Positions 10,518 to 32,048 of a DNA stretch of 64,000 bases are shown here, one piece after another. The notes under the pieces are model-generated. The model worked only from the letters and a program-made list of their open reading frames with translations. It made no database searches and was not told the DNA's origin. The stretch spans positions 8,348,390 to 8,412,389 of the forward strand of contig CM082580.2 in assembly GCA_040954595.2 (NCBI GenBank), written 5' to 3'. Every line of letters starts with the position of its first letter. The first letter of the stretch is position 1. This DNA is from Balanoglossus misakiensis. Lineage: Eukaryota > Animalia > Hemichordata. The translations under genes and the position numbers were made by a program.

Positions 10518-13500
10518 TGAGTGGCATTGCCAAAATCCCCACTTTGAAGACGTGTGCATCGCGTGGGGCTTTTGAGCGTGCGTCTTGGTTTCTGACAGTC
10601 GATTCCCAGCGCATGCCTTTGCTGTGTTTTATCTAGTGAAAACTAAGTTTGTGCGTAAAAGTCACCCATATTTGATATCGGTCACGTAAAACATTGAGTT
10701 TCGAAAAAAAGAACTTTGGCGATATCACGTTATGTTTTTCAAAGATACTATATGTGTGTAAATAGACTGAGATTATTGTCCGGTTTTGCGGAAATATTTT
10801 GCTGGTGGTGTCATTTTGATACGAATGTCTTAAAGGTATACAATGACACTTAATTTACATATGTCCATATATGGTTAAAAGGTCTAAGTCTACGAATGAC
10901 CGGTAACTAGTAATTTGCATAAGAGACAATTTAAGTGAAGGGACTCGATTGTCGATTCAGACGTTTGCGTACAAAACTAAAAATGATGTCGATATAGATA
11001 ATGACTATTTCTCTCTGGGAAGAGATATAACCTGAAATAGATCTGGATGTAATTGGCGTTTGGAGTATACCTCTATTTAGCTTAACTGCATCTGCGACAT
11101 TTGCAAGAAAAGGAGGGTTATTTTACTTTATAGAGAACATCAGCCGCGCAGACGTAATCATAATCACTCCGGGGAGTCATCTTTTCATTTCCGTCTGCAA
11201 ATTATCCATCATCATCATCATAAGGACACCAGACTTTATATGGAATGACATTTTCGTCCTTTCAAGATCGTTTTTTTTTCTCTCTCATTCGGTGATCAAA
11301 TCTTGCTTTCGTGTTCGTCTGTCAATTGTTATGAAACAGAAGTAATTCGTGAAATGCATCGTTCTTGTTCATGTCAACATCAAAACAACCCTTGTCCTTA
11401 GGGGAGAAAATGATTCCAGCCGATGCGCCGCGACCTCCTCCCACGGCCTACCCCGCGCTGGTTATATCGACTTCATTCTGGTATACATCATTATTTAAAT
11501 TTCCAAACTACCCAACTGTACCGGTGATATCTGAGTGAGATGACTTTTCCATTTTGTTGGCAATGGCGTGGAAATGCGAGACCCGAGGAGATGAGGGTCA
11601 TAAGTGGTGCGTTGTACTGAATTTCGCGTAATATTTCCCTGAATTAAGGTTGGTATACCGTTCGGGGTATACGCAGTCTGCATTGCAACCTCCGGCAAAT
11701 TACCTTTAATGCGCTGAGCGAAGAAATGGATGCGTGATATACGCCAACGAGGAAACGCGTTTCTCCGTCAACTGATTGGGAGTAACAAAAACTCATAGTG
11801 AACACGACACAAGCTTACTGCATAATCAAGATATGTGCTAGTGACGCAGTCACTCACAAATGCGGCGAAATAGTTTATCGAGATTGGAAACTAAACGTCT
11901 CTTTGGCCATCTTTGCACGATGTACGCCCGCAAAAATTGCTTCCGCGGCCTCGGGGTTCAAATACACCGAACTTAATTCTGTGATGGCAAAGAGCCTAAT
12001 ACTACAGTTCACTCTATAGGCCCTACAGATGCAGGGCACTGCACTCACTATACGTGCATATGATTGACAAGAGCGACTCGTTACATTGCTGTTGGGGTTG
12101 AATCAAACGATAACAAAACCAGAAGCCTGCAGACACGCTTATTTTTATCAGCCCTGGCTTATCCAATTCTAATCACCGCACAGAGTTTACAACACTCGAA
12201 ACTTTTGCCTCAAAATTTGTTTTCCCTTTGTGTGCGATATAGACAGCGTGGTGATATTGCTTATGGAGAGACCGACATCTTTCGACGCAGTACTTGTAGA
12301 TGCTATTTAAGTCTGGATCATTTGCGTTTTCCTGACATGTGGTTACCATGCACCTACGAGAAATTATTTTCAGTCGCGTGATTAATACCTTGCTGATTCC
12401 AGCCCATAAAGTCAGATAAGTTATATGGAGTCTGCCCGTGGTGATATAACAATGAATACGTATTTTTCACTTTAGGCTCTTTCAGCGGCACCGCATGTTG
12501 CCGTGTTCTTCAAAGCCACATTTGTCATCGAAGATGGTGTGGACAATCTTCCAAGAATGTCCCTTATGGGTTTTCATAGAATTCCGACCTAGCTCCAACT
12601 GAACTCTAAAGGCGCACTGCCTGTAATGTGTTAGCCAATTGAGCGTAGATGTCTGAACGCACTATTTTGCTTTAAAACTTCTTCTTCGACCGTTTGAAAG
12701 TCTGGGGTTCAATCTAATTACGAACAGCAGTTCTCTTAGCAGCGACCATTTTCCTAGTTCAGAAGAAAATTCGAATTTACTCAAATTTCCCCTGATTAAA
12801 AAAAATGACTCAAGATGAGGTTTCTTTCGTTTCATACAAAAGCTCGCACACGCGGGAACAAAATGCACGGTGCCACAAATTCGATTCCATTGGGAAAACG
12901 TCACAAAATGTCCGCATTAACTTCTTTGTTCTGGAAACCACTCTTAAAAACGGATGTGTCGAATTACAACCCTGGGGGCGAGGGAAGAGTTTTGCATCGT
13001 GTGCTGCTTTCTTGCAATGATGAACGACATCCAAATGTTGCAGGCAATATGTACAATTATACAAGACACAGAAACGATCGCTCGGGTATTAAATGTCAGT
13101 ATAGAATATCTTCGGCAATTGCCTCCCAATTCTCGTTTGATGGGTTCTATTCGAAATGACCACCATGTGTTCCCCCACCCCCGCATATTTTAATCCTTTC
13201 ATGCATCGTTGTCTTGGCTATAGAAGACAACATATTAGCAAAAGCAATGTCACCATCTGCGCTCGGGCAGAATCGGTTTTTCGCGTATCCAAAGCAGCTA
13301 TACTTTTGAGTTTAATCCTCTGTGTTAAACATTGGTGCTGCCAGATAAGAGCCACATGGGCTATTTGCGTATAAATTTAGTAAACTCTTGAAACCGATTT
13401 CATCAAAATAATGGAAAATGGCTCTGCGTGGACTGAGTCGTAATGGTTTCTCTCACATCATTCTGCGCGTCGGTAGACAGCAAGGTGCGATTCGCCTGCA

Positions 13501-15710
13501 GACCTATATTTTTGTTTTGCGAATGATTTATTGGGAAGTGTCCCACAGAAAATAGCAAATGACAACGTCGATCCTCACGAAGTCCTTCAATTTTTACCGT
13601 CGCCCCCCGGTTGAAGCTTCCGCTATCGTGTCGTGATCGGCTAAGACAACTTCAGGGACTTCATTTTCTACGAAAGTGTTTTCCTGCAGGGCTGCATTGC
13701 CAAGTGTCAACGACTCGCGCTCACGCGACCTTTTATAAGTCCCCTGTTTACGTGCATACGAAGATTGCCATGGAAACGTGAAAGAACATCACAACAACAG
13801 CAACGAGCGGTGATGCCGGCCGGATGGAAGCTCAACACTCCCGACTTGACAAGTCCCTCATGACTTGTTTTACATTTCTGGAGGATTTCGTCAAATTTCA
13901 CACGAGGTCATTTTAGCGTGGACTAAGTTTCATTCACGTCCTCGGCGATCTAAAAGTACTCTCACATCACTTGATTAAAGTATAGTGTAGCATATTACCA
14001 CCGGTGTAAGATTCTGCCCTTGTATTTTGGCCAAGCTTATGTCCATGGCATAAAAATCCTTTCCTTGGCGACCCAGATCTTAGATCTGACGCCACCTGAA
14101 CCTGCTATCCAATGATAAAGCTTCATATGGTCATGGATACTGGTACATGTAATTATAAAAGTGCAATGTTGCACTCAGTGGCACATTAATAAAAACTTGA
14201 GTTATGCATAGAATTGTTTTGCAGCAAAGACGAGTATTAAGGCTGCGCCTAAAAGGTTTCAGTGAACAATGCAATTTATGGGAAATACTGCGTCATGTTT
14301 GACAGCAGAGGAAAGGAGGACGTGAACTTTTTTAGGTGCAGTGAACTTCCCCTTATGCGCATGCTCACCCACAAGGCAACAACTGTGGTAATAGCAAAAT
14401 TCACACAGCACACGCGGTAAAACTTCACGTCGATCGCAGGGTATGGACGGTGTCATCGCGATCTGCTGGCCTTGATTTCAACCGCTTTTTACGTTTTATT
14501 TACGAAGCAATAGAAAAAAATCAAAGCAACTCATCATTCTTTGAGCGATTTTATGGCGTATGTTTTTGGGTCAATCGGATAGGTCAGGAGGGTATTACCG
14601 CTGTGCTCTGGTAATGTCACCTTTTGCAAAGTGTCACTTTACACATGGGGCGGGGAACTTCTCACATGCTTTGAAACCGGAGGTGAAACAATATCGCCAA
14701 TTGTTTTCGTTAAAAGGCTTTTCCTGTCCAAAACATGAAGCCAAATAAATACATTTCATACTGGATATGAATCTTTGTGCATGCCCTGCTGTGTCCTATA
14801 CTTTTTTTTATCGTGCGAGGATTCTGAATATTGAATATCAAACATATAAGTCTGCTTTCTGAAACAGCTTTTACTGTAACCAAACTACGAATAAAACGCT
14901 ACCGCGTACCGCAGATTTACGTACTCATTTTGAGCACTTTTAAACGGAACAGAAGGTATAAAAACACGGCATGCCTTCGGTACTGTTTCATGTGCTACTT
15001 CTTCAAACAATTAAACATCCAACAAAAACCGACGGCGACTTTCACAACTCGATGCACGTGGAGCATCGCGAATCGTTGCCAACGGCCAGAAAGCGCGCCA
15101 AGCTATCACACACGGTTTTACTGTAGACACAGCACGCTCAGAAGTTTACACATGTCGAAGCGAAACCTCTTGACACTGCCACGCTGGGCAGCAAGTTTCG
15201 GTGATTTTTGACAAACCAGACACTCGATTGTCTTGTTGCTCGCGGGCACCGCATTTGTACGACGTCCAGCGGTCGTTTGCAATAACTTGGCCGTGAGCCA
15301 CTGCGACTGAAGATGAAACCGCACAACGTTACATTACTCGCCCTCCACGGGGGTTTCGTTCAAGGATTTTATTTGTCGTCTTTTTTAACTAGCATATAAC
15401 AACGAAAGGCGCATCAAAGGTAACAGCGTTTTTTTCTGCAGTCTGAGATGAGAGAAAGTTCAAAATTTGAACATGCAACTCCATAGTAACGTCGGTTACT
15501 GGGGTATTTCATAATAACATTATTGTTAACGTACGTGCATGGAGAGAGTTTCCCAGATGGTGCGAGTCACGTATTGTAAGCGCGTATGCATTGGATGGTA
15601 ATTAGGCCTATCATGCCTATGACGTTCAGCAGTGCACGTCGCCAAAAATACATGGACAGTGACGAGTTATCATGAAACTTTTATCGGCTCGAACAACTTG
15701 AACAAATTTG

Positions 15711-16400
15711 TGTTACGTAGGAGAAGTTTTCTTTTCTGAGGGGGGAGGTGTTACGTAGGAGAAGTTTGCTGTTGTTTTGTGACCAGGTGTGTTTTCGCTT
15801 ACTTTCGTAATTTGAATATTTGCGTGACCAGGTGTTGTGCATACATTATTCTTCCCCATGTAAAAAGTCCGCACGTTGTGTTGCGGCGTAGCTGCTAATT
15901 TGGACTTGCCCGTGTGAGCTGTTCCGTTCCTCGCCGGCTTGTAAGCTGTACCGTATTTCATGCTGCCCTGGTCTGGAAACCGCGCCCAGAAGCCGTGCTA
16001 CCTCATGAGGAATTCGTCTGAAAGCCGTGCCGTCTACCGGGGAATTGTGCGAGAACGCTACTCGGACTGAACGTCGCTGTTGGAACTGCCATGGCGTTGG
16101 TCGTGGTCGTCGTGCGCTACGGAGCCTTGGACTTTAGTCTTTCATTTCCCACACCTGGTCACATTTAAGGTAGTCACTTATTTTGTGTGTTTTTTTCCCC
16201 AGTGTACAACCATTTTATATTTACCAATGTTTAGTTGTAGTAATTAAAAGTTTCCATAAGCAAGGAAATAACGTGTGGTGTGCCCATTGTTGACCGTCTT
16301 TGTTGCGTGCTGCGCTGGTTGGTTCACCAAAGCGAGCCATTCAGTAAGTCTGTTTGCTCACTGCCCTGTTTCGTAACTGAACGGCCAGCGTGTCGTAACA
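15711..16400 (+). mobile_element. LTR retrotransposon remnant: 19-bp 5'-LTR stub + polypurine tract + complete ~650 bp LTR
   Basis: Termini TGTTACG (15711) and CGTAACA (16400) are perfect 7-bp inverted repeats with TG...CA ends, flanked by a 4-bp TTTG duplication. 'tgttacgtaggagaagttt' recurs at 15749 directly after the purine run 'gaggggggagg'. Confidence 0.8.
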
Positions 16401-16798
16401 TTTGGTTTTGCGCATTTATTATGTAATTTGATTACATTTAGACGTACAGCCACAATCAGAGGTGCTCAAAGGATCCTAGTGGATCTTTACACGTTTAGAC
16501 CATAAAAAAGACGTACATGTACACTTATCACAAGGTATGTAAAACCCAAACTGCTTATAAGTATCCGCGTACCTTTTTACAAGTAAAAGTGGAGTCCGTA
16601 AACCTTATAAGGATTTTACTTCGGCAGCAAATCACAACCAATAAGGAGTCTGGTACCGTGTCCCATTCCCGTCGCTGGCTGCGCTACGCTAAAAGAAAAA
16701 AAGGCTGAGTCAGACCAAGGTCAGACTGCTGCATGCCAAAGGTCCCGACCGTTGGATCAAAGGAAATTTCGAAGAACTCCGTGTACACGTACTTGAAA

Positions 16799-19126
16799 AT
16801 GGCCAAGACTATCGCAGTGTTCGGTGCTACTGGACTTCAGGGGGGTGCTGTTGCAAGGGCTCTGTTGAAGGAATCTGGTTACGCTGTGCGTGCAGTTACC
16901 AGGAACCCCGACAGTGACAAGGCAAAGGTTTTAAAACAACTCGGTAAGTGAATAGAGCGATCAAGACGTGAACCGGAGTTATGGTTGACGTAAACCTAGC
17001 TTTCAATTATAGAGAGACAATTACAAGGTGACCTACATCGCATCTCTTGGCGTGGCACCCTCAGCCAGATTTGCACGACTTGTGTGTTCATTTCACGCTT
17101 GACCTATCACTTTGCGGAAAGCTCAATCGTGCTGAGTCACTGCAGATTTGCTCACGATCATTTACCATGGCACCTCCCCCCCCCCCCCCCCCCAGCCACG
17201 CCCGGAAGGATTTTACATGAAACACTATTAATGACAACTGACGGACTGAAAAGAATCGAATTAACGGCGAGATTTTTGACTGATGTTAGCAAAAAAACAT
17301 GCCACATCTTGGGAACTATAAACTCGCATAACATAACAGGAACCCCAAGTCCAGAAACACCCTACTTTCCACTCATATTAAATATGTATTTCTGTCCTTT
17401 AAATGAACTAAAAGGAGCCGAAGTTGTTAAAGCCGACACAAACGACAAACCCAGTGTTGTTGCTGCCATGAGTGGTTGCTATGGAGTTTACGGAGTCACT
17501 AACTTTTGGGAGCACGCGGATATGGACAGAGAAATCACCCAGGTGGGATAAATTTACACATGTATTTATCTCTCTTTCAGTAAAATGAAATGGATTGTTT
17601 AGCTGTAACTTTGTTCTGTGTACCAAATGCAATTTCTTGTTCTACTCCAAACAAAGGTGTGTGTTCATCAACAAATAGAATTCGATTCAGGATAAAAACA
17701 AATCACTCGTGTAGTTTACTCTTTGCCAGTCGATTTTTGCCCACGTGAGGGCGCTTTCCATGCCCCTTGAGTGCCTAACATCATAAACAGAAAGTACTAC
17801 AGTTATATGTATACATGAATATGAAAGTCATGTTCTTGTGCAATTGGCCCATGTCTAAGTTTACTCTGACTGCAAAGTCCAAACATTCTGCTGTCAGACA
17901 ATTATATATCTCTTCTTTGCCATCAACATACTTCATGGAGCTATAGATTAAAAGTAAAAAGTGCAGTTATTCACCAGGCAGTGGATATTTGCCTGATTGA
18001 GCAATCTTGCATTGCTTTTGGGGTTTTTCCAGGGGAAAACCTTGGTAGACGCAGCCAAAGCCGCGGGGATCAAACACTTTGTGTACAGCACGTTGGCCAA
18101 TGTGAAAGCTTTGATCGGGAAGCCGTGTCCGCATTTCGACGGTAAAGCTCTGGTCGAAGAATATATGGCTGAATCTTCAGGCGTGCCTTATACGTGCGTC
18201 CGATTTTCTGCATACATGGAGAACTTTCTCGGTGATTTGAAACCTGTGGCTGTGAGTGACAACGTTCGTCTCTTGAGTAAGTACTAGTATACACTGTTGG
18301 TGAAGACAATTATCCACAATAGAATTTGGTGTTTTACCATGATTGAGTATATATATGCACAACTCTCAGTGATTTGAAACAAGTAATAATTTCATCAGTC
18401 TGCACAAGGTATAAACGTTGGTTTTGCAACAAAAATTGCACAGATAAAATAATACGTTAATGAACCCCCTTAAACCTTGATGTGTTGCAGATATTCCCAT
18501 GGGAGATACGCCCTGGGATTTGGTGTGCATGCCAGATGCTGCGGCAATCATCGCAGCCATATTCAACAAGCCCTCCCAGTATCTTGGCAAACGGGTGATA
18601 CTCGTCAGTGAAAGCATCACCCTAAAAAAATGCGCCGAGATCCTGTCCCGACACTTTTCGCCGCTGGTTTTCGAAGCAAGTGATGTAAGTGAAGCTGGGA
18701 ATTCTCCACTTGCACACACAAAAATCTGGAACATCAACAGTAATTTGTTACAGTGTCAATGTGTGGGCTGGGTTCATCCCTTGTCGCACTCCGGTGCAAT
18801 ATCTCATCTCATTCCGACAATGCTTCTGGTTAATGCATGTGCATAACTGTACATACTATGGAAATTCAAAATGGCCGCCAATCTCTGTACTAATGCATCA
18901 TAAGTTAACACTCTTGATGTTAATCTTCCAGATAACACCGGATAAGTTTGCCAAGTTGGGTTTTCCTGGAGCTGAAGATTTGGCTGCTATGTTTGAATTT
19001 TACCAAGCTGAGGATCCCGCAACGAGGGACTACATCGACTCAAGAGGGCCAGATCTTCCCAAGTCGACCACTTTTGAGCAATGGGTCATAGCCAACAGAG
19101 AGGCACTCAAATCGGCGTTCGCTTGA
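16799..19126 (+). CDS. NMRAL1: NmrA-like family domain-containing protein (NMRAL1/HSCARG-like NAD(P)-binding redox sensor), copy 1, 301 aa
   Basis: Exons 16799-16943, 17415-17542, 18033-18276, 18491-18684, 18932-19126 join in frame (906 nt) with GT-AG introns. Rossmann motif VFGATGLQGG, plus VTNFWE, HFDGK and GFPGAEDLAAMF motifs typical of the family. Confidence 0.92.
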
Positions 19127-22100
19127 AAACACGCCAACATCCTTAAAATTAAGGGAGGGCATAGGGTATAGAGTGGATATTGTCTTGTGTCATTAGTGTG
19201 ACCAAGTGCAATTTTTATCTGGTCAAGCGATCAGATGCTTTGGAAAGCACTAAAATTTGATACCATTCGCGCAATCCTGGTCATTGTAGCCTGAATCACT
19301 TTCACAATTAATTGTACTGTAACGGCAGAATATTATAGTTGTTTACTGCCAGATATATAAAAGGAGGAAAACGAATCTCACTAGCAGGGAAGTTTTTGAG
19401 GGTGTGAAATGTCTATAGTGTTATGCAGGAATGTGCTGTTGTAGTGTGTCTGAACAGCTGATTGTTGAGGGCGCTGTAACAAGTGAAAGAGTCCAGACAT
19501 CAGTTACACTGGTTCTTTTTGCAAGTTTTTTTTATTGAACTTCTCTCCAGAAGTTACGGGTCAGTACATAAAGTCTCTAAAATGGTATATAATTTCACAA
19601 TATTTCAAATCCCACAGACAGTGGAGAATAAATACTAACAATCCACCTACTCAAGCGCATCAAAAACGATGCGCTATTAATACCATCGGGCAATAAGTTA
19701 AGATTTTTCTCAAGAGTCTAATCATTTCAGTATTGTGATGAAATTTTTACGGTACCCCTTACTGGAAACAAGGGTGGTGTTTTCTAAGTATGCCCATTAA
19801 ATTGAAAAATAATTTGTTAAACACAGGTTGGGGTAATTCATGCAAATAAACCAGGTTAGATCTGTGAGAGCTCGCCCAAAATTACAGCTACTGACAACTT
19901 CAAAATAGAAAAGCATTGAAGAGAGGTGTTTCAAGAAAAGCAATCTTTGGTGTCCAACAGAAAAAAATTCAATGTCTTTTGACACTTCTTCATTCAATTC
20001 ATACACTCAAAACAGTCTACAGCTTTCATTTCATTTCATGATCACCTTTAAAAATCTTTCTGTTGCAATTCAGACTATACAGTATGATTTACAACATGCA
20101 AATATGATATAGCCCTTCTGTTTAAAGTGCAATATATGTCACATACAGCGACAAAAAAATCAAACTACATTTGCTTTAAAAAGGCAATATGTACAATTAT
20201 ACAAGACACAGAAACGATCGCTCGGGTATTAAATGTCAGTATAGAATATCTTCGGCAATTGCCTCCCAATTCTCGTTTGATGGGTTCTATTCGAAATGAC
20301 CACCATGTGTTCCCCCACCCCCGCATATTTTAATCCTTTCATGCATCGTTGTCTTGGCTATAGAAGACAACATATTAGCAAAAGCAATGTCACCATCTGC
20401 GCTCGGGCAGAATCGGTTTTTCGCGTATCCAAAGCAGCTATACTTTTGAGTTTAATCCTCTGTGTTAAACATTGGTGCTGCCAGATAAGAGCCACATGGG
20501 CTATTTGCGTATAAATTTAGTAAACTCTTGAAACCGATTTCATCAAAATAATGGAAAATGGCTCTGCGTGGACTGAGTCGTAATGGTTTCTCTCACATCA
20601 TTCTGCGCGTCGGTAGACAGCAAGGTGCGATTCGCCTGCAGACCTATATTTTTGTTTTGCGAATGATTTATTGGGAAGTGTCCCACAGAAAATAGCAAAT
20701 GACAACGTCGATCCTCACGAAGTCCTTCAATTTTTACCGTCGCCCCCCGGTTGAAGCTTCCGCTATCGTGTCGTGATCGGCTAAGACAACTTCAGGGACT
20801 TCATTTTCTACGAAAGTGTTTTCCTGCAGGGCTGCATTGCCAAGTGTCAACGACTCGCGCTCACGCGACCTTTTATAAGTCCCCTGTTTACGTGCATACG
20901 AAGATTGCCATGGAAACGTGAAAGAACATCACAACAACAGCAACGAGCGGTGATGCCGGCCGGATGGAAGCTCAACACTCCCGACTTGACAAGTCCCTCA
21001 TGACTTGTTTTACATTTCTGGAGGATTTCGTCAAATTTCACACGAGGTCATTTTAGCGTGGACTAAGTTTCATTCACGTCCTCGGCGATCTAAAAGTACT
21101 CTCACATCACTTGATTAAAGTATAGTGTAGCATATTACCACCGGTGTAAGATTCTGCCCTTGTATTTTGGCCAAGCTTATGTCCATGGCATAAAAATCCT
21201 TTCCTTGGCGACCCAGATCTTAGATCTGACGCCACCTGAACCTGCTATCCAATGATAAAGCTTCATATGGTCATGGATACTGGTACATGTAATTATAAAA
21301 GTGCAATGTTGCACTCAGTGGCACATGAAGAAAAACTTGAGATATGCATAGAATTGTTTTGCAGCAAAGACGAGTATTAAGGCTGCGCCTAAAAGGTTTC
21401 AGTGAACAATGCAATTTATGGGAAATACTGCGTCATGTTTGACAGCAGAGGAAAGGAGGACGTGAACTTTTTTAGGTGCAGTGAACTTCCCCTTATGCGC
21501 ATGCTCACCCACAAGGCAACAACTGTGGTAATAGCAAAATTCACACAGCACACGCGGTAAAACTTCACGTCGATCGCAGGGTATGGACGGTGTCATCGCG
21601 ATCTGCTGGCCTTGATTTCAACCGCTTTTTACGTTTTATTTACGAAGCAATAGAAAAAAATCAAAGCAACTCATCATTCTTTGAGCGATTTTATGGCGTA
21701 TGTTTTTGGGTCAATCGGATAGGTCAGGAGGGTATTACCGCTGTGCTCTGGTAATGTCACCTTTTGCAAAGTGTCACTTTACACATGGGGCGGGGAACTT
21801 CTCACATGCTTTGAAACCGGAGGTGAAACAATATCGCCAATTGTTTTCGTTAAAAGGCTTTTCCTGTCCAAAACATGAAGCCAAATAAATACATTTCATA
21901 CTGGATATGAATCTTTGTGCATGCCCTGCTGTGTCCTATACTTTTTTTTATCGTGCGAGGATTCTGAATATTGAATATCAAACATATAAGTCTGCTTTCT
22001 GAAACAGCTTTTACTGTAACCAAACTACGAATAAAACGCTACCGCGTACCGCAGATTTACGTACTCATTTTGAGCACTTTTAAACGGAACAGAAGGTATA

Positions 22101-22855
22101 AAAACACGGCATGCCTTCGGTACTGTTTCATGTGCTACTTCTTCAAACAATTAAACATCCAACAAAAACCGACGGCGACTTTCACAACTCGATGCACGTG
22201 GAGCATCGCGAATCGTTGCCAACGGCCAGAAAGCGCGCCAAGCTATCACACACGGTTTTACTGTAGACACAGCACGCTCAGAAGTTTACACATGTCGAAG
22301 CGAAACCTCTTGACACTGCCACGCTGGGCAGCAAGTTTCGGTGATTTTTGACAAACCAGACACTCGATTGTCTTGTTGCTCGCGGGCACCGCATTTGTTC
22401 GACGTCCAGCGGTCGTTTGCAATAACTTGGCCGTGAGCCACTGCGACTGAAGATGAAACCGCACAACATTACATTACTCGCCCTCCACGGGGGTTTCGTT
22501 CAAGGATTTTATTTGTCGTCTTTTTTAACTAGCATATAGCAAAGAAAGGCGCATCAAAGGTAACATAGTTTTTTTTCTGCAGTCTGAGATGAGAGAAAGT
22601 TCAAAATTCGAACATGCAACTCCATAGTAACGTCGGTTTCTCGGGTGTTTCATAATAGCATTATTGTTAACGTACGTGCATGGAGAGAGTTTCCCAGATG
22701 GTGCGAGTCACGTATTGTAGGCGCGTATGCATTGGATGGTAATTAGCCCTATCATGCCTATGACGTTCAGCAGCTAGTGTACGTCGCCAAAAATACATGG
22801 ACAGTGACGAGTTATCATGAAACTTTTATCGGCTCGAACAACTTGAACAAATTTG

Positions 22856-23577
22856 TGTTACGTAGGAGAAGTTTTCTTTTCTGAGGGGGGAGGTGTTACG
22901 TAGGACAAGTTTGCTGTTGTTTTGTGACCAGGTTCGTTTTCGCTTACTTTCGTAATTTGAATATTTTGCGTGACCAGGTGTTGTGCATTCATTATTTTTC
23001 CCCATGTAAAAAGTCCGCACGTTGTGTTGCGGCGTAGCTGCTAATTTGGAGCTGTTCCGTTCCTCGCCGGCTTGGAAGCTGTGCCGTATTTCCTGTTGCA
23101 CTGGTCTGGAAACCGCGCCCAGAAGCCGTGTTGTTTCATGCTGTCCTGGTCTGGAAACCGCGCCCCGAAGTCGTGCTACCTCATGAGGAATTCGTCTGAA
23201 AGCCGTGCCGTCTACCGGGGAATTGTGCCAGAACGCTACTCGGACTGAACGTCGCTGTTGGAACTGCCATGGCGTTGGACGCGGTCGTCGTGCGCTACGG
23301 AGCCTTGGTCTTTAGTCTTTCATTTCCCACACCTGGTCACATTTAAGGTAGTCACTTATTTTGTGTGTTTTTCCCCCAGTGTACAACCATTTTATATTTA
23401 CCAATGTTTAGTTGTAGTAATTAAAAGTTTCCATAAGCAAGGAAATAACGTGTGGTGTGCCCATTGTTGACCGTCTTTGTTGCGTGCTGCGCTGGTTGGT
23501 TCACCAAAGCGAGCCATTCAGTAAGTCTGTTTGCTCACTGCCCTGTTTCGTAACTGAACGGCCAGCGTGTCGTAACA
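22856..23577 (+). mobile_element. LTR retrotransposon remnant, duplicated copy
   Basis: Same TTTG-TGTTACG...CGTAACA-TTTG structure, second LTR start at 22894; carries an extra internal repeat unit 'ctggtctggaaaccgcgccc' (23101, ~23146). Confidence 0.8.
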
Positions 23578-23974
23578 TTTGGTTTTGCGCATTTATTATG
23601 TAATTTGATTACATTTAGACGTACAGCCACAATCGGAGGTGCTCAAAGGATCCTAGTGGATCTTTACACGTTTAGACCATAAAAAGACGTACATGTACAC
23701 TTATCACAAGGTATGTAAAACCCAAACTGCTTATAAGTATCCGCGTACCTTTTTACAAGTAAAAGTGGAGTCCGTAAACCTTATAAGGATTTTACTTCGG
23801 CAGCAAATCACAACCAATAAGGAGTCTGGTACCGTGTCCCATTCCCGTCGCTGGCTGCGCTACGCTAAAAGAAAAAAAGGCTGAGTCAGACCAAGGTCAG
23901 ACTGCTGCATGCCAAAGGTCCCGACCGTTGGATCAAAGGAAATTTCGAAGAACTCCGTGTACACGTACTTGAAA

Positions 23975-26296
23975 ATGGCCAAGACTATCGCAGTGTTCGG
24001 TGCTACTGGACTTCAGGGGGGTGCTGTTGCAAGGGCTCTGTTGAAGGAATCTGGTTACGCTGTGCGTGCAGTTACCAGGAACCCCGACAGTGACAAGGCA
24101 AAGGTTTTAAAACAACTCGGTAAGTGAATAGAGCGATCAAGACGTGAACCGGAGTAATGGTTGACGTAAACCTAGCTTTCAATTATAGAGAGACAATTAC
24201 AAGGTGACCTACAACGCTTCTCTTGGCGTGGCACCCTCACCCAGATTTGCACGACTTGTGTGTTCATTTCACGCTTGACCTATCACTTTGCGGAAAGCTC
24301 AATTGTGCTGAGTCACTGCAGATTTGCTCACGATCATTTACCGTGGCACCTCCCCCCCAGCCGCGCCCGGAAGGATTTTACATGAAACACTATTAATGAC
24401 AACTGACGGACAGAAAAGAATCGAATTAACGGCGAGATGTTTGACTGATGTTAGCCTGAATGTTAGCAAAAAAACATGCCACATCTTGGGAACTATAAAC
24501 TCGCATAAAATAACAGGAACCCCAAGTCCAGAAACACCCTACTTTCCACTCATATTAAATATGTATTTCTGTCCTTTAAATGAACTGAAAGGAGCCGAAG
24601 TTGTTAAAGCCGACACAAACGACAAACCCAGTGTTGTTGCTGCCATGGGTGGTTGCTATGGAGTTTACGGAGTCACTAACTTTTGGGAGCACGCGGATAT
24701 GGACAGAGAAATCACCCAGGTGGGAGAAATTTACACATGTATTTATCTCTCTCTCAGTAAAAATGAAATGGATTGTTTAGCTGTAACTTTGTTCTGTTTA
24801 CCAAATGCAATTTCTTGTTCTACTCCAAACAAAGGTGTGTGTTCATCAACAAGTAGCATTCGATTCAGGATAAAAACAAATCACTCGGGTAGTTTATACT
24901 CTTTGCATATAGCCAGTCGAGTTTTGCCCACGTGAGGGCGCTTTCCATGCCCCTTGAGTGCCTGACATATAGAAACGGAAAGTTGTACAGTTATATGTAT
25001 ACATGTATATGAAAGTCATGACCTTGTGCAATTGGCCCATGTCTAAGTTTACTCTGACTGCAAAGTCCAAACATTCTGCCGTCAGACAATTATATATCTC
25101 TTCTTTGCCATCAACATACTTCATGGAGATATAGATTACAAGTAAACAGCTCAGTTGTTCACCAGGCCGGCAGAGGATATTTGTTTCCGCCCTCGCCTGA
25201 TTGAGCAATCTTGCATTGCTTTTGGGGTTTTTCCAGGGGAAAACTTTGGTAGACGCAGCCAAAGCCGCTGGGATCAAACACTTTGTGTACAGCACGTTGG
25301 CCAATGTGAAAGCTTTGATCGGGAAGCCGTGTCCGCATTTCGACGGTAAAGCTCTGGTCGAAGAATATATGGCTGAATCTGCAGGCGTGCCTTATACGTG
25401 CGTCCGATTTTCTGCATACATGGAGAACTTTCTTGGTGATTTGAAACCTGTGGCTGTGAGTGACAACGTTCGTCTCTTGAGTAAGTATACACTGTTGGTG
25501 AAGACAATTATCCACAATAGAATTTGGTGTTTTACCATGATTGAGAATATATATGCACAACCCTCGGTGATTTGAAACAAGTAATAATTTCATCAGTCTG
25601 TACAAGGTATAAACGTTGGTTTTGCAACAAAAATTGCACAGATCAAATAATACGTTAATGAACCCCTTTAAACCTTGATGTGTTGCAGATATTCCCATGG
25701 GAGATACGCCCTGGGAGTTGGTGTGCATGCCAGACGCTGCAGCAAGCATCGCAGCCATATTCAACAAGCCCTCCGAGTATGTTGGCAAACGGGTGATACT
25801 CATCAGCGAACGCATCACCCTCAAAAAGTGCGCCGAGATCCTGTCCCAGCACTTTTCGCCGCTGGTTTTTGAAGCAAGTGATGTAAGTCTTAACCCTTTT
25901 TCTCATATTTTGCTCACAACAACTTCAGATTAGTCTCTCTTCAAAGTTACAATTAAGATTGGGGGTCACCATATCAAAATGTTGAATGACGGAGTAAAAT
26001 TGTCGCAAATGTGAAATTCAAAATGGCCGCCAATCTCCATGGAGAAAAATTTGAGCGTGTACTACTAATGCATCACAACACTCTTGATGTTAATCTTCCA
26101 GATAACACCAGATAAGTTTGCCAAGTTGGGGTTTCCTGGAGCTGAAGATTTAGCTGCTATGTTTGAATTTTACCAAGCTGAGGATCCCGCAACGAGGGAC
26201 TACATCGACTCAAGAGGGCCAGATTTTCCCAAGTCGACCACTTTTGAGCAATGGGTCATAGCCAACAGAGAGGCACTCAAATCGGCGTTTGCTTGA
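23975..26296 (+). CDS. NMRAL1: NmrA-like family domain-containing protein, copy 2, 301 aa
   Basis: Exons 23975-24119, 24592-24719, 25237-25480, 25689-25882, 26102-26296; intact frame; about 10 amino-acid differences from copy 1. Confidence 0.92.
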
Positions 26297-28018
26297 TTTA
26301 AAGCACTACAGCATCCAAAAAGGTTTTTACTGTCTGGTTCATAATCGGTAAAACCAATTTGTGTATTTTTATCTAGTCAAGCGATCAGCATTCACGCAAT
26401 CCTGGTCATTGTAGTCTGAATCACCTTCACAATTAATTGTACTGTAACGGCAGAATATTATAGTTGTTTACTGCCAGAAATATAAAAGGAGGAAAACGAA
26501 TCTCACTAGCAGGGAAGTTTTTGAGGATATGTACGTGATGTTATGTCTATAGTGCCACACAGGAATGTGCTGTTGTAGTGTGTGTGAACAGCTGAATGTT
26601 GAGGGCGCTGTAACAAGTGACAGAGTCCAGACATCAGTTACACTGGTTCTTTTCGCAAGTTTTTTTTATTGAACTTCTCTCCAGAAGTTACAGGTCAGTA
26701 CATAAAGTCTCTAAAATGGTATATAATTACACAATATTTCAAATCCCACAGACAGTGGAGAATAAATACTAACAATCCACCTACTCAAGCGCATCAAAAA
26801 CGATGCGCTATTAATACCGTCGGGCAATAAGTTAAGATTTTTCTCAAGAGTCTAATCATTTCAGTATTGTGATGAAATTTTAACAGTACCCCTTACTGGA
26901 AGCAAGGGTGGTGTTTTCTAAGTATGCCCATTAAATTGAAAAAGAATTTGTTAAACACAGGTTGGGGTAATTCATGCAAATAACCAGGTTAGATCTGTGG
27001 GAGCTCGCCCAAAATTACAGCTACTGACAACTTCAAAATAGAAAAGCATTGAAGAGGGGTGTTTTTAGAAAAGCAATCTTTGGTGTCCAACAGAAAAAAA
27101 TCAATGCCTTTTGACACTTCTTCATTCAATTCATACACTCAAAACAGTCTACAGCTTTCATTTCATTTCATGATCAGCTTTAAAAATCTTTCTGTTGCAA
27201 TTCAGATTTTACAGTATGATTTGCAACATGCAAATATGATAGAGTCATCCTGTTTAAAGTGCAATATATGTCGCATACAGCGACAAAAAATCAACCTACA
27301 TTTGCTTAAAACTTCTCGCAAAGTGTTACAACTTGGAATCATTAAGTTTTATTTCACGGCCTTCTGTTAGACAAACACACTGCAAAGGCATAGTATTTTT
27401 CATTGCATGAAATACACAAAATGTTTCAGCACAAGTTTTGGATGGATATGTATACAGTCACTTAGTCATGGCTTTCAAGGGAAAGTTCCACACAACTTTT
27501 AAGAACTCGGTCACTACACATACTTTTCAGATGTTTTCTACATTTCTGGAAGGGGAGTTATCGGAAAAAGACAAAACAACAAGAAAAGCAAAAAAATCTA
27601 CATTATTATAAATAATTCAAAGGCTAGAGCCTAAGGAGGTAGAAGTTCCAAATTGCATTGGCATTCTGAATAACTTCTGATGCACTGGCTGTTACCGACA
27701 AACAAGTTGCTCTTGGAGCCTTCATTCGAACACTCCAACCTGAAAATTGCATTTTTGCTCACGCAAAATTTGTTGGCACTGGACTTAGTCATTTGCTCTC
27801 TCAGTAAAAAATAAGTGAATTCTAAAAAGACTTCCGCACACTCAATGTCCGATAATCCAGCCAGCATGTTGCATTCTCCTTGTCAATGTGACAAAAAATG
27901 TGGGCACGGCGCAATTCTCAATGTGGAATCTTTTCTCAGCAAAGTTGAGATTTCATTCTGTGCCTGCCCGTCTCTCATCTTCCCGATCTTCCCAGTGTTG
28001 TAAATGAAAGACCAGTCT

Positions 28019-31000
28019 TTATTTGCTGCTGTTCTCTTTAATGATTCGCTCGCGCAGCCGGTCCTTGTACGCCATGATGTCGCCCTGCCATTTGGTTATC
28101 TTCTTCTTCTCGCACACCCAGATCTCTTCAGCCACCTGTCCTATAAGACGGAAGTCGTGACTGACAAGAACCAAGCCGCCGTCGAAGTTGTTGATGGCAT
28201 CAGCTAAGGAGTCGATGGTCTCGATGTCCAAATGATTGGTCGGTTCGTCAAGCAGCAACATGTGTGGCGTCTGCCAGGATATCCAGGCGAATATAACTCT
28301 GCAGCGCTGACCGTCGGATAAATTGCGCATTGGACAAACCTGCAAATGAGGAGCAGATACTGTATCAACTAAACTGTCTCAGTGGCTGGGTGCCTTTTAC
28401 GAAGAATAGAGTTTCACAGAAACTGTATTGTAGTGTTGCCAAAAATTCTTTTTCCTGGTAAACTTGGCCTCAAAGACACAGAGCCAGCTTGACAAAGATT
28501 CCATTTACATAGTGTATTGGAGTAAGTTGTCCAACGGGTAGTAAACTGTCTCAGAACCATGTTTTCCCATAAATGAAACTTACCTGTTGTTTTCCAGACA
28601 ATCCGTATCTGCCGATGATTTTCCTCATGTCTTCCTTTTCCTTGATTTCCGGGAAGCACTTCATCATGTACTCCAAGGCACTGAGACTCAGATCCAGGGC
28701 TTCAGTTAAATGCTGGGGGAAAACAAATACATTAGGAGATCAGATAAGTCCAACTGACACTATCGCTACGGTCATCACACCAGTAATAAAACTCCAATCT
28801 AAAGCTCAGGAATATTATACTTATGTCATGTAGAAAATATTTTTGAAGATATTCACTGTGAGAATTGCAACTTGTACTAACCTGGTGAAATCTTCCTATC
28901 CTGAGATGGGGATGCTTCCGTATGAGTCCGTCAGTCGGATGCAGTTCTCCCAGCAGAAGCTTGATCAGCGTCGACTTTCCGGCACCGTTAGGACCGACCA
29001 GGGCCACCCTAGAGTCCAGATCGAGTCCAAACTCTATGTTTTTGTAAATTAGAGGCTGTAGGGAAAAATAGTACAGAATACCAATGGTGTGTTTGTATGA
29101 CGGGATGGATTGAAAAATAGCTTGCAAAAAAAATCACCATCCCCTGTCTTAACAATCAATCTATAGTGGTGCTGTGCATATAACTATTTATTTTCAAATT
29201 CTAAGCCAGTAATTTCCTGTTGATTGCCACTGTAGCTGTAGAGAATTTACTGGCATTAAGACTGCCTTATATAATGGGTGACCACGAGGTTACTGTAATT
29301 TCTACAAGAAAAGTAGAAGTACCTTGTCATCGGCATATTTAAAGCTGACATTCTGTACCATCAACACAGGGGGTGGGAGAGTGCCGCATTCTGGGAAATA
29401 AAACGACAGTGTCTGGAAAAAAAAAACGGATGTTTGGTAAAATGTATTGAATAATCAATCAATCAAGATATCTCTCGTGTTGTCAGCAAGCCCCCTGTGG
29501 GTACTTGTAATAAGGATTATTGAACCCCACATTTCTCTCATTGTAATCTTGTGTGATTATGAAACTGTCCTGTATTTCACACACCTTATCCGCCACAACT
29601 TTATCCGTGAGTCCGCCAGCAACCATTTTCCCCAGCGTCTTCTCTTTACTCTGGGCTTGCCTGGCAAGCTTGGCACTACCATGCCCAAACCTTGCAATGT
29701 AGTCCTGTAAGTAAAACAGATTTATATATGTGTTAAACTGTAGATATTAGATGCAACATTGTGTCGCCTAGTGACATCACAAATTTTGTGGCATCCCTGA
29801 AGAACTTTGGGACCTGCCACTATTTCTGGATCATCCTTTTTAAGAGAGTGAGAACAAGCAGCCATTGAGCCATAATCACATGAAACTGCATCGGTCAGTC
29901 TGTGCTTGAAGTCAGAACAAGAAATCGCTCTCAGGTGTTTTTTATCACTACCTCCAGGGACCGTAGTCCCGGTGACTATAATTCGGCCTTTTGATGTCAT
30001 CATTCTACAAGCACAGCATATTGTGTCCCCCTCCCTCATGTGTGTAATCAGGTGTCTAGGCAGTGTTGTCGGAAGTGCAGGTTTGGGTCCAGTCGTTGGA
30101 CTGGCGAAAATGCCTACCTTCATGTGTGCAATCTGTGCCTGCTCCCAGTTGTATCTTTTCATCTGATTCTCTTCCAGTTCATACCGGGTCCTCACGTAAG
30201 CGTCGTAGTTACCCTGGAAAGCCAGACACAAAGAGAGTCATCACATTGACACTAGGTTGTGGGATGGATATGGCAGGTTGAGTTAACTGCAGTTTTGCTA
30301 TTCAATGTACCATGATCACTGCACAGAAATCAGGAATACTGGCATTGTCTGTGTGCTTGAAGTCAGAGAAAATGAAAATCGCTTCAAGGTGTCTTTAGCA
30401 TTATCACCAGGACTGACGTCCGGTGACTGTAATTCGGCCTTTCGATGTCATCATTCTTCAAGCCACACAGTGATGCCCTCTTTTGTAATTTTTTATTGTA
30501 GGGGTTGCTTTTGATGTTGGAAAGCAAAATAGCCAAAATTTGAAAGTTGGTTGAGTGAATAATAGATGAATGAGGCAGTGTCTACTTACACCGTAGTAGT
30601 TCAGTGCTGCATTGTGTAAATGAATAATATTCGTACAGACTCCGTTGAGAAAATCTTGCGAGTGTGATATCAGCACCAATATACGTTTATACCTGGATGT
30701 GACAAAAAGAAAAACAGAATTGGAATGGAGTTCTTCAGTGTTACGGGGTTGAACGGGTGATTCTCGTATCTGACAACAAGGGCAATGTGGGGCCCCTTCA
30801 CAGAGTAACGGAAAGCAAAATGTCATGCATCGCAACTCACTGTTTCAGTTCCTCCTCTAACCACACGCAAGCTTCTAGATCCAAGTGATTTGTCGGTTCG
30901 TCCAGGATCAGTAAGTGCGGCCGGATGAACAGCGCCCTGGCCAGGGCTATCCTCATTCGCCACCCACCGGAGAAGTTCTTGCACGCTCTGTTCTGCATCT

Positions 31001-32048
31001 CGTGGTCGAAGCCCAGACCGTGGAGAATGCGAGCGGCCGAACTTTCCGCCTTGTCGGCATCCAGCTCCTCCAGGCGTTCGAAGACCTCCATTAGTCTCTC
31101 GGCCTCGGCTGTGATTGGAGAGAATGGACAGTACTTAGAGCAAGGTAAAATCAGCAAACCCAGTACATGTACTTCTTTAACCTCACTTCGTGAATTTACA
31201 CACCGGAAAAGCACAGGAAGCCACAGATCCGAATACTTACATTCCAGATGTCCGATTTCCTCAGATTCCTTCTCCAGTCGATTCCTCTCCTCGTCGACGT
31301 CCATGACACACTCCAAGGCAGTCTTGTCACTTGCCGCCATCTCCCGACTCAGGTGGAAAATGTCGATGTGATCCGGGATCGGCACTTCACGGTTACCCAT
31401 CACGTGAAGGAATGTGGATTTTCCTGTTGAATAGACAGACATGTAGTGAACATGTAGTGAACATCTACACGAGCCACGTATTCAATGCTCTGGCAGTACA
31501 CTAACAACAGTACATGTACATGTATAAAGCAAAAAATCACGTTCAAACACCTACCAGATCCGTTGAGTCCCACAAGACCGTATCTCCTGCCGCAGTTCAG
31601 TTCGATCTTGGTGTCGGCCAGCAGCTCCACACCGTGGAATGTGACGGAGAAGTTGTAAATCTTGATGTCTCTGCTGCTGGGATGCGAGGCGAGCACCCCC
31701 GTGCAAGACCGACCGCTGCTCAGTTTGAGATCGTCCAAGGCACTTGCCGCTCCGTCCACTGCACCATTGCTAGCACCTGGAAGAGTGGGGGAAAAACACA
31801 TTTTCAAGAACAATGAATGCACAAAAATCCTTCACTCTTAATTTATCTATCTGTGTGCCAAAACCTCAGCAAGAAATTAAGACAAGTGGTCACATGGGTT
31901 TCTTACCATTATTAACCCCATTTGAAGCGCTTGCACCATTCTGTTGCTCTTCTTGGACTTCTGTCTTGGCAGCAGCCCCTTTCCTCTGTCTCTGCTTGGC
32001 AGCTTCCTTCTTCTTAGCTTGACGCTTCTTGGCTGCTTCGGAAGGCAT
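28019..32048 (-). CDS. ABCF2: ATP-binding cassette subfamily F member 2, ~615 aa
   Basis: 11 coding exons (32048-31907, 31776-31555, 31423-31241, 31108-30841, 30692-30590, 30213-30118, 29704-29585, 29412-29323, 29055-28882, 28712-28584, 28339-28019) total 1848 nt in frame. N-terminus [18 protein letters not shown]; two NBDs ([26 protein letters not shown]; [17 protein letters not shown]); no TM domain. Confidence 0.96.
29901..30015 (-). ncRNA. Intronic box C/D snoRNA, U2-antisense (SNORD89-like), copy A
   Basis: On the ABCF2 sense strand: box C ATGATGA (30003-29997), box D CTGA (29915-29912), terminal stem tgtgcttg/caagcaca, C'-like GTGATAA. CAAAAGGCCGA is complementary to U2 nt 9-19 and AGCGAT to U2 nt 1-6. 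SNORD89 resemblance is from memory, not a search. Confidence 0.8.
30355..30463 (-). ncRNA. Intronic box C/D snoRNA, U2-antisense (SNORD89-like), copy B
   Basis: Box C ATGATGA (30454-30448), box D CTGA (30366-30363), stem gcttgaag/cttcaagc extendable to ~30341/30477. CGAAAGGCCGA pairs with U2 9-19 (one G-U) and GAAGCGAT with U2 1-8. Paralogous to copy A in the adjacent intron. Confidence 0.8.

What the first reader, a model, noticed from the sequence alone, without database searches (positions are those of the whole stretch)
29901..30463. Two paralogous U2-targeting box C/D RNAs hidden in consecutive ABCF2 introns
Seen: two ~110-nt homologous blocks in adjacent introns (29705-30117 and 30214-30589), on the host sense strand, one per intron. 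Each has box C ATGATGA, box D CTGA and a terminal stem, while flanking intron sequence is unrelated. Both keep 11 nt antisense to U2 snRNA nt 9-19 (U2 starts AUCGCUUCUCGGCCUUUUGG). Knowledge: this layout resembles vertebrate SNORD89 as I recall it, which has been proposed to guide U2 Gm12 and sits in a different host gene in human. Inference: a duplicated spliceosomal-RNA modification guide in an invertebrate, hosted by a translation-associated ATPase gene and likely unannotated.
Basis: partly seen in the sequence, partly recalled or inferred. Interest (0 to 1): 0.8.

Follow-up and report, generated by a model that had tools for sequence, protein, structure and literature searches.

The report
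Two U2-methylation guide RNAs in ABCF2
Two copies of a small RNA related to mammalian SNORD89 sit in neighbouring introns of the ABCF2 gene of an acorn-worm-like animal, where they are predicted to guide methylation of the splicing RNA U2; the family is known, but both copies keep a second U2-matching stretch that may help the guide work.

Summary
Confirmed, and mostly known biology. Two 107-nt minus-strand blocks (30356-30462, 29905-30011) lie in introns 5 and 6 of an intact 11-exon ABCF2 gene (90% identical to Ptychodera flava, so hemichordate-like). Both match Rfam SNORD89 end to end (34.3 and 31.1 bits, below the cut-off of 41). They have box C, box D, a terminal stem and a 12-nt guide to U2 nt 9-20 in the register that gives Gm12 in vertebrates. 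SNORD89-guided U2 G11/G12 methylation is published, and a 2016 table already lists the family as conserved in deuterostomes. Two additions. (1) An echinoderm-like contig also carries the RNA in ABCF2, but in intron 8, whereas the human host is RNF149. It is a likely accessory guide, as in yeast snR13, and could explain the two-site methylation seen in mouse cells. Expression, this animal's own U2 and the exact methylated base are untested.

The parts
28019..32048 (-). Host gene ABCF2: 11 coding exons, 615 aa, 10 GT-AG introns
   Evidence: Open spliced frame; 89.7% identity over 613 aa to Ptychodera flava ABCF2-like P0016
30214..30589 (-). Intron 5 (376 nt), host of copy A; second longest of the 10 introns
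30356..30462 (-). Copy A, SNORD89-like box C/D RNA; terminal stem of 8 or more bp; ends 142 nt before the 3' splice site
   Evidence: Rfam 31.1 bits, E 6.3e-4; fold
30448..30454 (-). Copy A box C (AUGAUGA)
30434..30445 (-). Copy A guide: 12 nt complementary to U2 nt 9-20 (2 G.U pairs)
   Evidence: against the U2 24-mer printed in the PMC6984369 supplement
30429..30432 (-). Copy A degenerate D' box (UUAC), same register as human UUGC; predicts G12
30404..30426 (-). Copy A internal hairpin (10 bp, Watson-Crick); its 3' strand overlaps the C' candidate GUGAUAA at 30407-30401
   Evidence: z -3.65
30378..30385 (-). Copy A second element GAAGCGAU, complementary to U2 nt 1-8; candidate accessory guide
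   Evidence: 7 of 5000 shuffles
30363..30366 (-). Copy A box D (CUGA)
29705..30117 (-). Intron 6 (413 nt), host of copy B; longest of the 10 introns
29905..30011 (-). Copy B, SNORD89-like box C/D RNA; ends 200 nt before the 3' splice site
   Evidence: Rfam 34.3 bits, E 9.4e-5; fold
29997..30003 (-). Copy B box C (AUGAUGA)
29983..29994 (-). Copy B guide: 12 nt complementary to U2 nt 9-20 (1 G.U pair)
29978..29981 (-). Copy B degenerate D' box (UUAU)
29942..29948 (-). Copy B C' box (GUGAUAA, 6 of 7 consensus positions)
29924..29930 (-). Copy B second element GAGCGAU, complementary to U2 nt 1-7 (1 G.U pair)
   Evidence: 205 of 5000 shuffles
29912..29915 (-). Copy B box D (CUGA)

Best explanation
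These are two paralogous, intron-encoded homologues of SNORD89 that are likely cut out of ABCF2 introns 5 and 6 after splicing and are predicted to guide fibrillarin to 2'-O-methylate U2 snRNA at G12, possibly G11 too. Shown in sequence: the boxes, the stem, the guide, the host and the homology. Inferred from established box C/D biology: exonucleolytic trimming of the intron, assembly with SNU13/NOP56/NOP58/fibrillarin, and the D'+5 rule. The 5' guide would pair with U2 nt 9-20. A second element before box D would pair with U2 nt 1-8, so that the RNA could grip the first 20 nt of U2 without a gap and help open the hairpin in which G12 lies (inferred). The two copies likely arose by an intron-to-intron duplication inside ABCF2 after the split from the lineage of L012.
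For: Full-length RF00578 hits. Guide, spacer and D' register are the same as in human, whose D' is listed as TTGC at position 31. G12 guidance was shown in yeast (PMC6984369). Snord89 knock-down in mouse cells lowers U2 G11 by 72% and G12 by 37% (PMC11863803). In a 4-sequence alignment the terminal stem has 31 of 32 cells paired and 4 of 8 pairs changed on both sides. An independent homologue lies in an ABCF2 intron of another animal (L012, 38.5 bits). In a second allele, one contig spanning 29977-30142 has 13 differences, all listed, none in box C, guide or D' of copy B; the one inside the RNA turns a stem mismatch into an A-U pair. The second element is present in all 4 aligned sequences and in the human sequence printed. 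Its core lies 9 nt before box D in 3 of 4 (12 nt in copy A). Precedent for such extra pairing: PMC3116282 and snR13 (PMC5389607).
Against: Both copies score below Rfam's cut-off of 41 bits. D' matches CUGA at only 1 of 4 positions in the G12 register, and the neighbouring register AUUA (2 of 4) would point at C13. The U2 used is the vertebrate-type 24-mer from a paper, not this animal's own. The second element alone is short: copy B 205 and L051 121 of 5000 shuffles. The four sequences are related, so these tests are not independent. The second allele of copy B also loses one hairpin G-C pair while gaining an A-U pair, and the table of differences was cut short. Covariation rests on only 4 sequences.
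Confidence: 0.85

Rival explanations
1. Same family, different or shifted target: the invertebrate D' region (AUUAY) is read as AUUA and places the methyl group on U2 C13, or on G11; or the guide serves an rRNA site.
For: In copies A and B and in L012 the AUUA register matches CUGA at 2 of 4 positions and the G12 register at 1 of 4. Unusual D' boxes shift targets in yeast (PMC5389607). Arabidopsis SnoR113, now assigned to U2 G13, had earlier been assigned to a 25S site.
Against: Guide and spacer are invariant relative to vertebrate SNORD89, whose G12 activity was shown in yeast. The 25S site of SnoR113 was found unmethylated. The second element also points at U2.
Confidence: 0.12
2. Only one copy is active; the other is a young duplicate that is decaying.
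For: Copy A has a G.U pair in the guide, a displaced C' box and a 12-nt rather than 9-nt gap to box D. Copy B has a stem mismatch and a weaker second element.
Against: The flanks have diverged to chance level while both cores keep every box, the guide and a hairpin. The second allele shows no listed difference in copy A (at most 2 unlisted substitutions and no indel on the spanning contig), against 7 substitutions and 2 indels in its 5' flank.
Confidence: 0.1
3. A chance duplication or small repeat family with no RNA function.
For: Scores are below the Rfam cut-off. The short search motif also occurs in unrelated DNA: 104 of 106 metagenome loci are not SNORD89.
Against: Only 2 copies in 64 kb by a custom model. 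Boxes, stem, covariation, sense-strand intronic position and a homologue in the same host gene of another animal all agree. The whole genome was not available, so dispersed copies elsewhere are not excluded.
Confidence: 0.02

Closest known systems
SNORD89 / HBII-289 (Rfam RF00578), vertebrate guide for U2 Gm12 and Gm11
   Same: Box C, guide AAAGGCCGA, one-base spacer, degenerate D' in the same register, AGCGA element and box D, terminal stem, intronic location.
   Different: Host is ABCF2, not RNF149; two copies in adjacent introns; D' is UUAC/UUAU, not UUGC; different internal hairpin; 58-60% identity to the vertebrate copy L051; below the gathering score.
Yeast snR13 and other box C/D snoRNAs with extra base-pairing (accessory guides)
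   Same: Unusual D' box plus a conserved second element complementary to the sequence beside the target; in snR13 both are needed for two-site methylation.
   Different: Those act on rRNA and were tested by mutation. Here the substrate is U2 snRNA and the accessory role is inferred only.
Arabidopsis SnoR113, guide assigned to U2 Gm13
   Same: A box C/D guide for what appears to be the equivalent U2 position (offset of one, my inference from the table).
   Different: Sequence homology to SNORD89 was not tested; no Rfam plant family matched the copies.
Box C/D scaRNAs (vertebrate G.U/U.G wobble stem; Drosophila long CAB box)
   Same: They modify spliceosomal RNA; PMC6984369 asks to reclassify SNORD89 as a scaRNA.
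   Different: No GU/UG-repeat wobble stem here; only a 2-mismatch likeness to the Drosophila motif, overlapping the guide and D'.

Membership tests
Box C/D guide RNA | Box C (RUGAUGA) near the 5' end and box D (CUGA) near the 3' end | tested here: met
   Both copies, 92 nt from C to D
Box C/D guide RNA | Terminal stem closing boxes C and D | tested here: met
   Folds; 4 of 8 pairs covary across 4 sequences
Box C/D guide RNA | Antisense element of 10 nt or more directly upstream of D or D' | tested here: met
   12 nt to U2 nt 9-20, tested against the published vertebrate-type U2 5' end
Box C/D guide RNA | Internal C'/D' pair | tested here: inconclusive
   C' 6 of 7 in both copies; D' 1 of 4 in the homologous register, 2 of 4 in the next. 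Human D' is also degenerate
Box C/D guide RNA | Stable RNA bound by fibrillarin and guiding methylation | not testable with these tools
   Needs RNA data or bench work
SNORD89 (RF00578) | End-to-end match to the family model as best family | tested here: met
   Model positions 1-114, E 9.4e-5 and 6.3e-4; next family E about 8
SNORD89 (RF00578) | Score at Rfam's curated gathering cut-off of 41 bits (formal database membership) | tested here: not met
   34.3 and 31.1 bits; hence reported as homologues, not as Rfam-annotated members
SNORD89 (RF00578) | Guide, spacer and D' register that place U2 G12 five nt upstream of D' | tested here: met
SNORD89 (RF00578) | Complementarity to this organism's own U2 | not testable with these tools
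   No U2 gene in the window and no genome held
Box C/D scaRNA (considered, not filed) | G.U/U.G wobble stem in the apical hairpin (vertebrate type) | tested here: not met
   Hairpins are Watson-Crick; definition from PMC4041459
Box C/D scaRNA (considered, not filed) | Drosophila-type long CAB box | tested here: inconclusive
   Best site has 2 mismatches and overlaps the guide and D'
ABCF2 (host) | Full-length similarity to named ABCF2 proteins with an intact frame | tested here: met

The most novel reading that the evidence does not exclude
SNORD89 is a bipartite guide: across deuterostomes, human included, a second element before box D pairs with U2 nt 1-8 while the 5' guide pairs with nt 9-20, unwinding the 5' hairpin of U2; together with the degenerate D' box this produces the G11+G12 double methylation, as in yeast snR13. 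ABCF2 is an old host of the RNA in hemichordates and echinoderms, where it has moved and duplicated between introns, while vertebrates carry it in RNF149.
Probability: 0.5. Interest if true: 0.5.

Novelty: new member of a known kind. Interest (0 to 1): 0.3.

Why it matters
As a gene call it is modest: a correct annotation of two RNAs that Rfam's cut-off misses. The comparison across phyla is worth more. Methylation of U2 G12 is reported as essential for splicing in vitro (review PMC7960923), and SNORD89 loss changes hundreds of splice events (PMC11863803), whose authors leave open how one guide affects two neighbouring bases. The distant copies strip the RNA down to what selection kept: the boxes, the guide and one more short element complementary to U2 nt 1-8. 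That gives a single-mutation test in human cells or yeast. The ABCF2 copies also give a clean case of a snoRNA sitting in different introns of one host gene and in a different host in vertebrates.

Tried and rejected
No whole genome was held, so dispersed copies and this animal's U2 could not be searched. The sequencing-run search listed 3 DNA runs of one sample and no RNA holder; this says nothing about expression. The second-allele comparison covers only 29420-30830, run X3 laid nothing, and the tables left out 28 substitutions and 24 indels, so no formal test of constraint was made; contig depth was not used as copy number. Pattern scan of metagenome contigs: 106 loci, of which 2 are SNORD89 (L051, L012). 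Rfam was run on 6 of the 106 and my model R1 on all 106. L004 (25.7 bits), L103 (22.1) and L060 (21.2) were set aside as background selected by the pattern. Viral contigs: 12 loci, none above 15.3 bits. R1 scores of the four training sequences are circular and were not used as evidence. The weak Rfam hits TtnuCD6, AbsR11 and three microRNA families were rejected as chance. No remnant of the RNA in the other 8 introns, including intron 8 (local scores 12-23 against 53-214). The second element is not a canonical D-box guide, because it ends 9-12 nt before box D. A Cajal-body signal was not established. One Pfam query of an ABCF2 exon was out of frame and gave nothing; the ORF upstream in L051 had no Pfam hit, and its likeness to RNF149 is recalled, not tested. 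Two look-ups of earlier findings returned nothing.

Full report
Observation. The minus strand of 29300-31000 holds two related blocks, found independently as direct repeats 451 nt apart. They align over 107 nt each, 30356-30462 (copy A) and 29905-30011 (copy B), with 77% identity over 116 columns. The core alignment score was reached by 0 of 500 shuffles, while the intron flanks were at chance level (5' flank 44 and 32 of 500, 3' flank 362 and 436 of 500). Each has box C AUGAUGA, box D CUGA 92 nt on, a terminal stem and an internal hairpin; folding z-scores are -2.8 and -3.7. A model built from the two copies and two homologues finds no third copy in the window (next hit E 0.24).

Host and organism. 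Eleven exons from 32048 to 28019 splice through ten GT-AG introns to an open 615-residue frame. Among the 120 proteins listed, the best match is the Ptychodera flava ABCF2-like protein (89.7% over 613 aa), then Glandiceps and Saccoglossus (84-85%) and echinoderms (71-77%). The animal is therefore hemichordate-like. The two RNA-bearing introns, 5 and 6, are the longest of the ten (376 and 413 nt against 130-267). The RNAs end 142 and 200 nt before the 3' splice sites, close to the medians of 109 and 168 nt reported for human ribosomal-protein and translation hosts (PMC13736004, passages).

Family. Rfam at gathering threshold gives 0 hits in the window. By E-value both copies match RF00578 SNORD89 over model positions 1-114 at 34.3 and 31.1 bits (cut-off 41), far ahead of any other family. 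They are homologues that automatic annotation would miss.

Target. Against the U2 5' 24-mer used as the SNORD89 substrate in PMC6984369 (supplement rows), both copies pair over 12 nt with U2 nt 9-20, with two G.U pairs in A and one in B. One unpaired A follows, then UUAC or UUAU where human has the D' box UUGC (PMC4914119 supplement; PMC11863803 Discussion). In that register the fifth base upstream faces G12. The register is ambiguous by consensus alone: AUUA would give C13. G12 guidance by vertebrate SNORD89 was shown in yeast (PMC6984369, section 6), and knock-down in mouse cells cut G11 methylation by 72% and G12 by 37% (PMC11863803, passages). This animal's own U2 was not available; that its 5' end equals the vertebrate one is assumed from general knowledge.

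A second element. Between C' and D, copy A carries GAAGCGAU, complementary to U2 nt 1-8, and copy B carries GAGCGAU, complementary to nt 1-7. The two elements together would cover U2 nt 1-20 without overlap, and the joint fold of copy A with the 24-mer forms both helices; that of copy B forms only the first. The AGCGA core is invariant in the 4 aligned sequences while its neighbours vary; it is in the Rfam consensus and in the human sequence printed. It ends 9 nt before box D in B, L012 and L051 and 12 nt in A, too far to be a canonical D guide. Shuffles reached the observed run in 7, 205, 21 and 121 of 5000 for A, B, L012 and L051; these are not independent. Extra pairing beside the target raises methylation up to five-fold in yeast (PMC3116282, passages), and in snR13 an unusual D' plus extra pairing is needed for two-site methylation (PMC5389607, abstract and section 12). 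I infer the same for SNORD89. The passages and Discussion of PMC11863803 that I read ascribe the two sites to the weak D' and do not mention a second element. A search for SNORD89 with extra-pairing terms listed 20 of 43 papers; I saw these as listings and opened only the two yeast papers. Figures were not visible, so earlier notice is not excluded.

Relatives. A pattern scan of metagenome contigs gave 106 loci, 2 of them real. L051 is a vertebrate-type SNORD89 (101.7 bits). L012:193-326 scores 38.5 bits and lies upstream of an ABCF2 exon with the same 58-codon limits as window exon 9, so in the intron equal to window intron 8. That exon is closest to echinoderm proteins (Patiria 93%, Diadema 91%, Lytechinus 90%, Ptychodera 81%), but only the 120 proteins were compared, so the clade is tentative. 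L012 has D' UUAC and a full 8-nt second element. Window intron 8 has no remnant. A and B are closer to each other (77%) than to L012 (68% and 63%), which points to a duplication within the hemichordate line. Across the four sequences the terminal stem keeps 31 of 32 cells paired, with 4 of 8 pairs changed on both sides.

Second allele. Contigs of the same sample show another haplotype. Of the listed differences, the four intron flanks carry 27 substitutions and 7 indels in 575 nt, copy A none, and copy B 3 substitutions and 1 indel. In B one change mends a stem mismatch, one adds an A-U pair and one removes a G-C pair in the hairpin; none listed touches a box or either U2-matching element. The tables were cut short, so this is suggestive only.

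What is known. The PMC4914119 supplement lists SNORD89 with host RNF149, conservation level 'Deuterostomes' (one step beyond vertebrates in that paper's scale) and a predicted U2 position 12 target. So homologues outside vertebrates had been detected. Arabidopsis has a guide for U2 G13 (PMC8053127, passages). A Drosophila S2 survey names neither Gm12 nor SNORD89 (PMC13228274, passages). No paper held ABCF2, snoRNA and 'host gene' together; SNORD89 with 'invertebrate' was held by 5 papers, 3 listed; a search on snoRNA host genes in hemichordates and echinoderms listed 15 papers, none on this by title or abstract start. The library lacks most subscription papers. PMC6984369 calls SNORD89 a scaRNA, but the copies lack the vertebrate G.U/U.G stem of PMC4041459 (passages), so I do not file them as scaRNAs. 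Also seen as passages only: PMC7960923, PMC12152556, PMC3273799, PMC3177221.

Verdict. A real feature, correctly read by the first stage: new members of a known family with a known job. Interest 0.3, carried by the accessory element and by the shared ABCF2 host.

Noticed in passing
L060:1745-1848 (+): Box C/D-like sequence with the same U2 guide and spacer, on a contig that looks like a ciliate nanochromosome (C4A4 repeat at its end, a ribosomal protein L13-family gene open under code 6). It has no Rfam hit at E up to 1, does not beat pattern-selected background with my model, and lacks the second element. Possibly a ciliate U2 G12 guide; the guide motif is not in the text of PMC3177221.
   Followed up: partly
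L012:193-326 (+), exon 486-659: SNORD89 homologue with a longer internal hairpin in the ABCF2 intron equal to window intron 8, in an echinoderm-like contig.
   Followed up: yes
window 13042-18690 / 20182-25888 and 19264-20181 / 26389-27311: Tandem duplication with a period of about 7.1 kb at 95-97% identity, each unit holding an NmrA-like gene; a recent duplication or two alleles assembled in a row.
   Followed up: partly
window 29085-29262 (-), ABCF2 intron 8: Two or three hairpins followed by an ACA triplet, loosely like an H/ACA RNA; folding z only -1.8 and no Rfam hit. Probably chance.
   Followed up: partly
window 28735-28780 (-), ABCF2 intron 9: A box C-like GUGAUGA and a CUGA about 40 nt apart, very close to the 3' splice site; too short for a typical snoRNA and no Rfam hit.
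   Followed up: no
window 29420-30830: The two haplotypes in the contigs differ strongly in introns (for example 12 listed substitutions in the 106 nt of 30012-30117), which makes the conserved RNA blocks stand out.
   Followed up: partly
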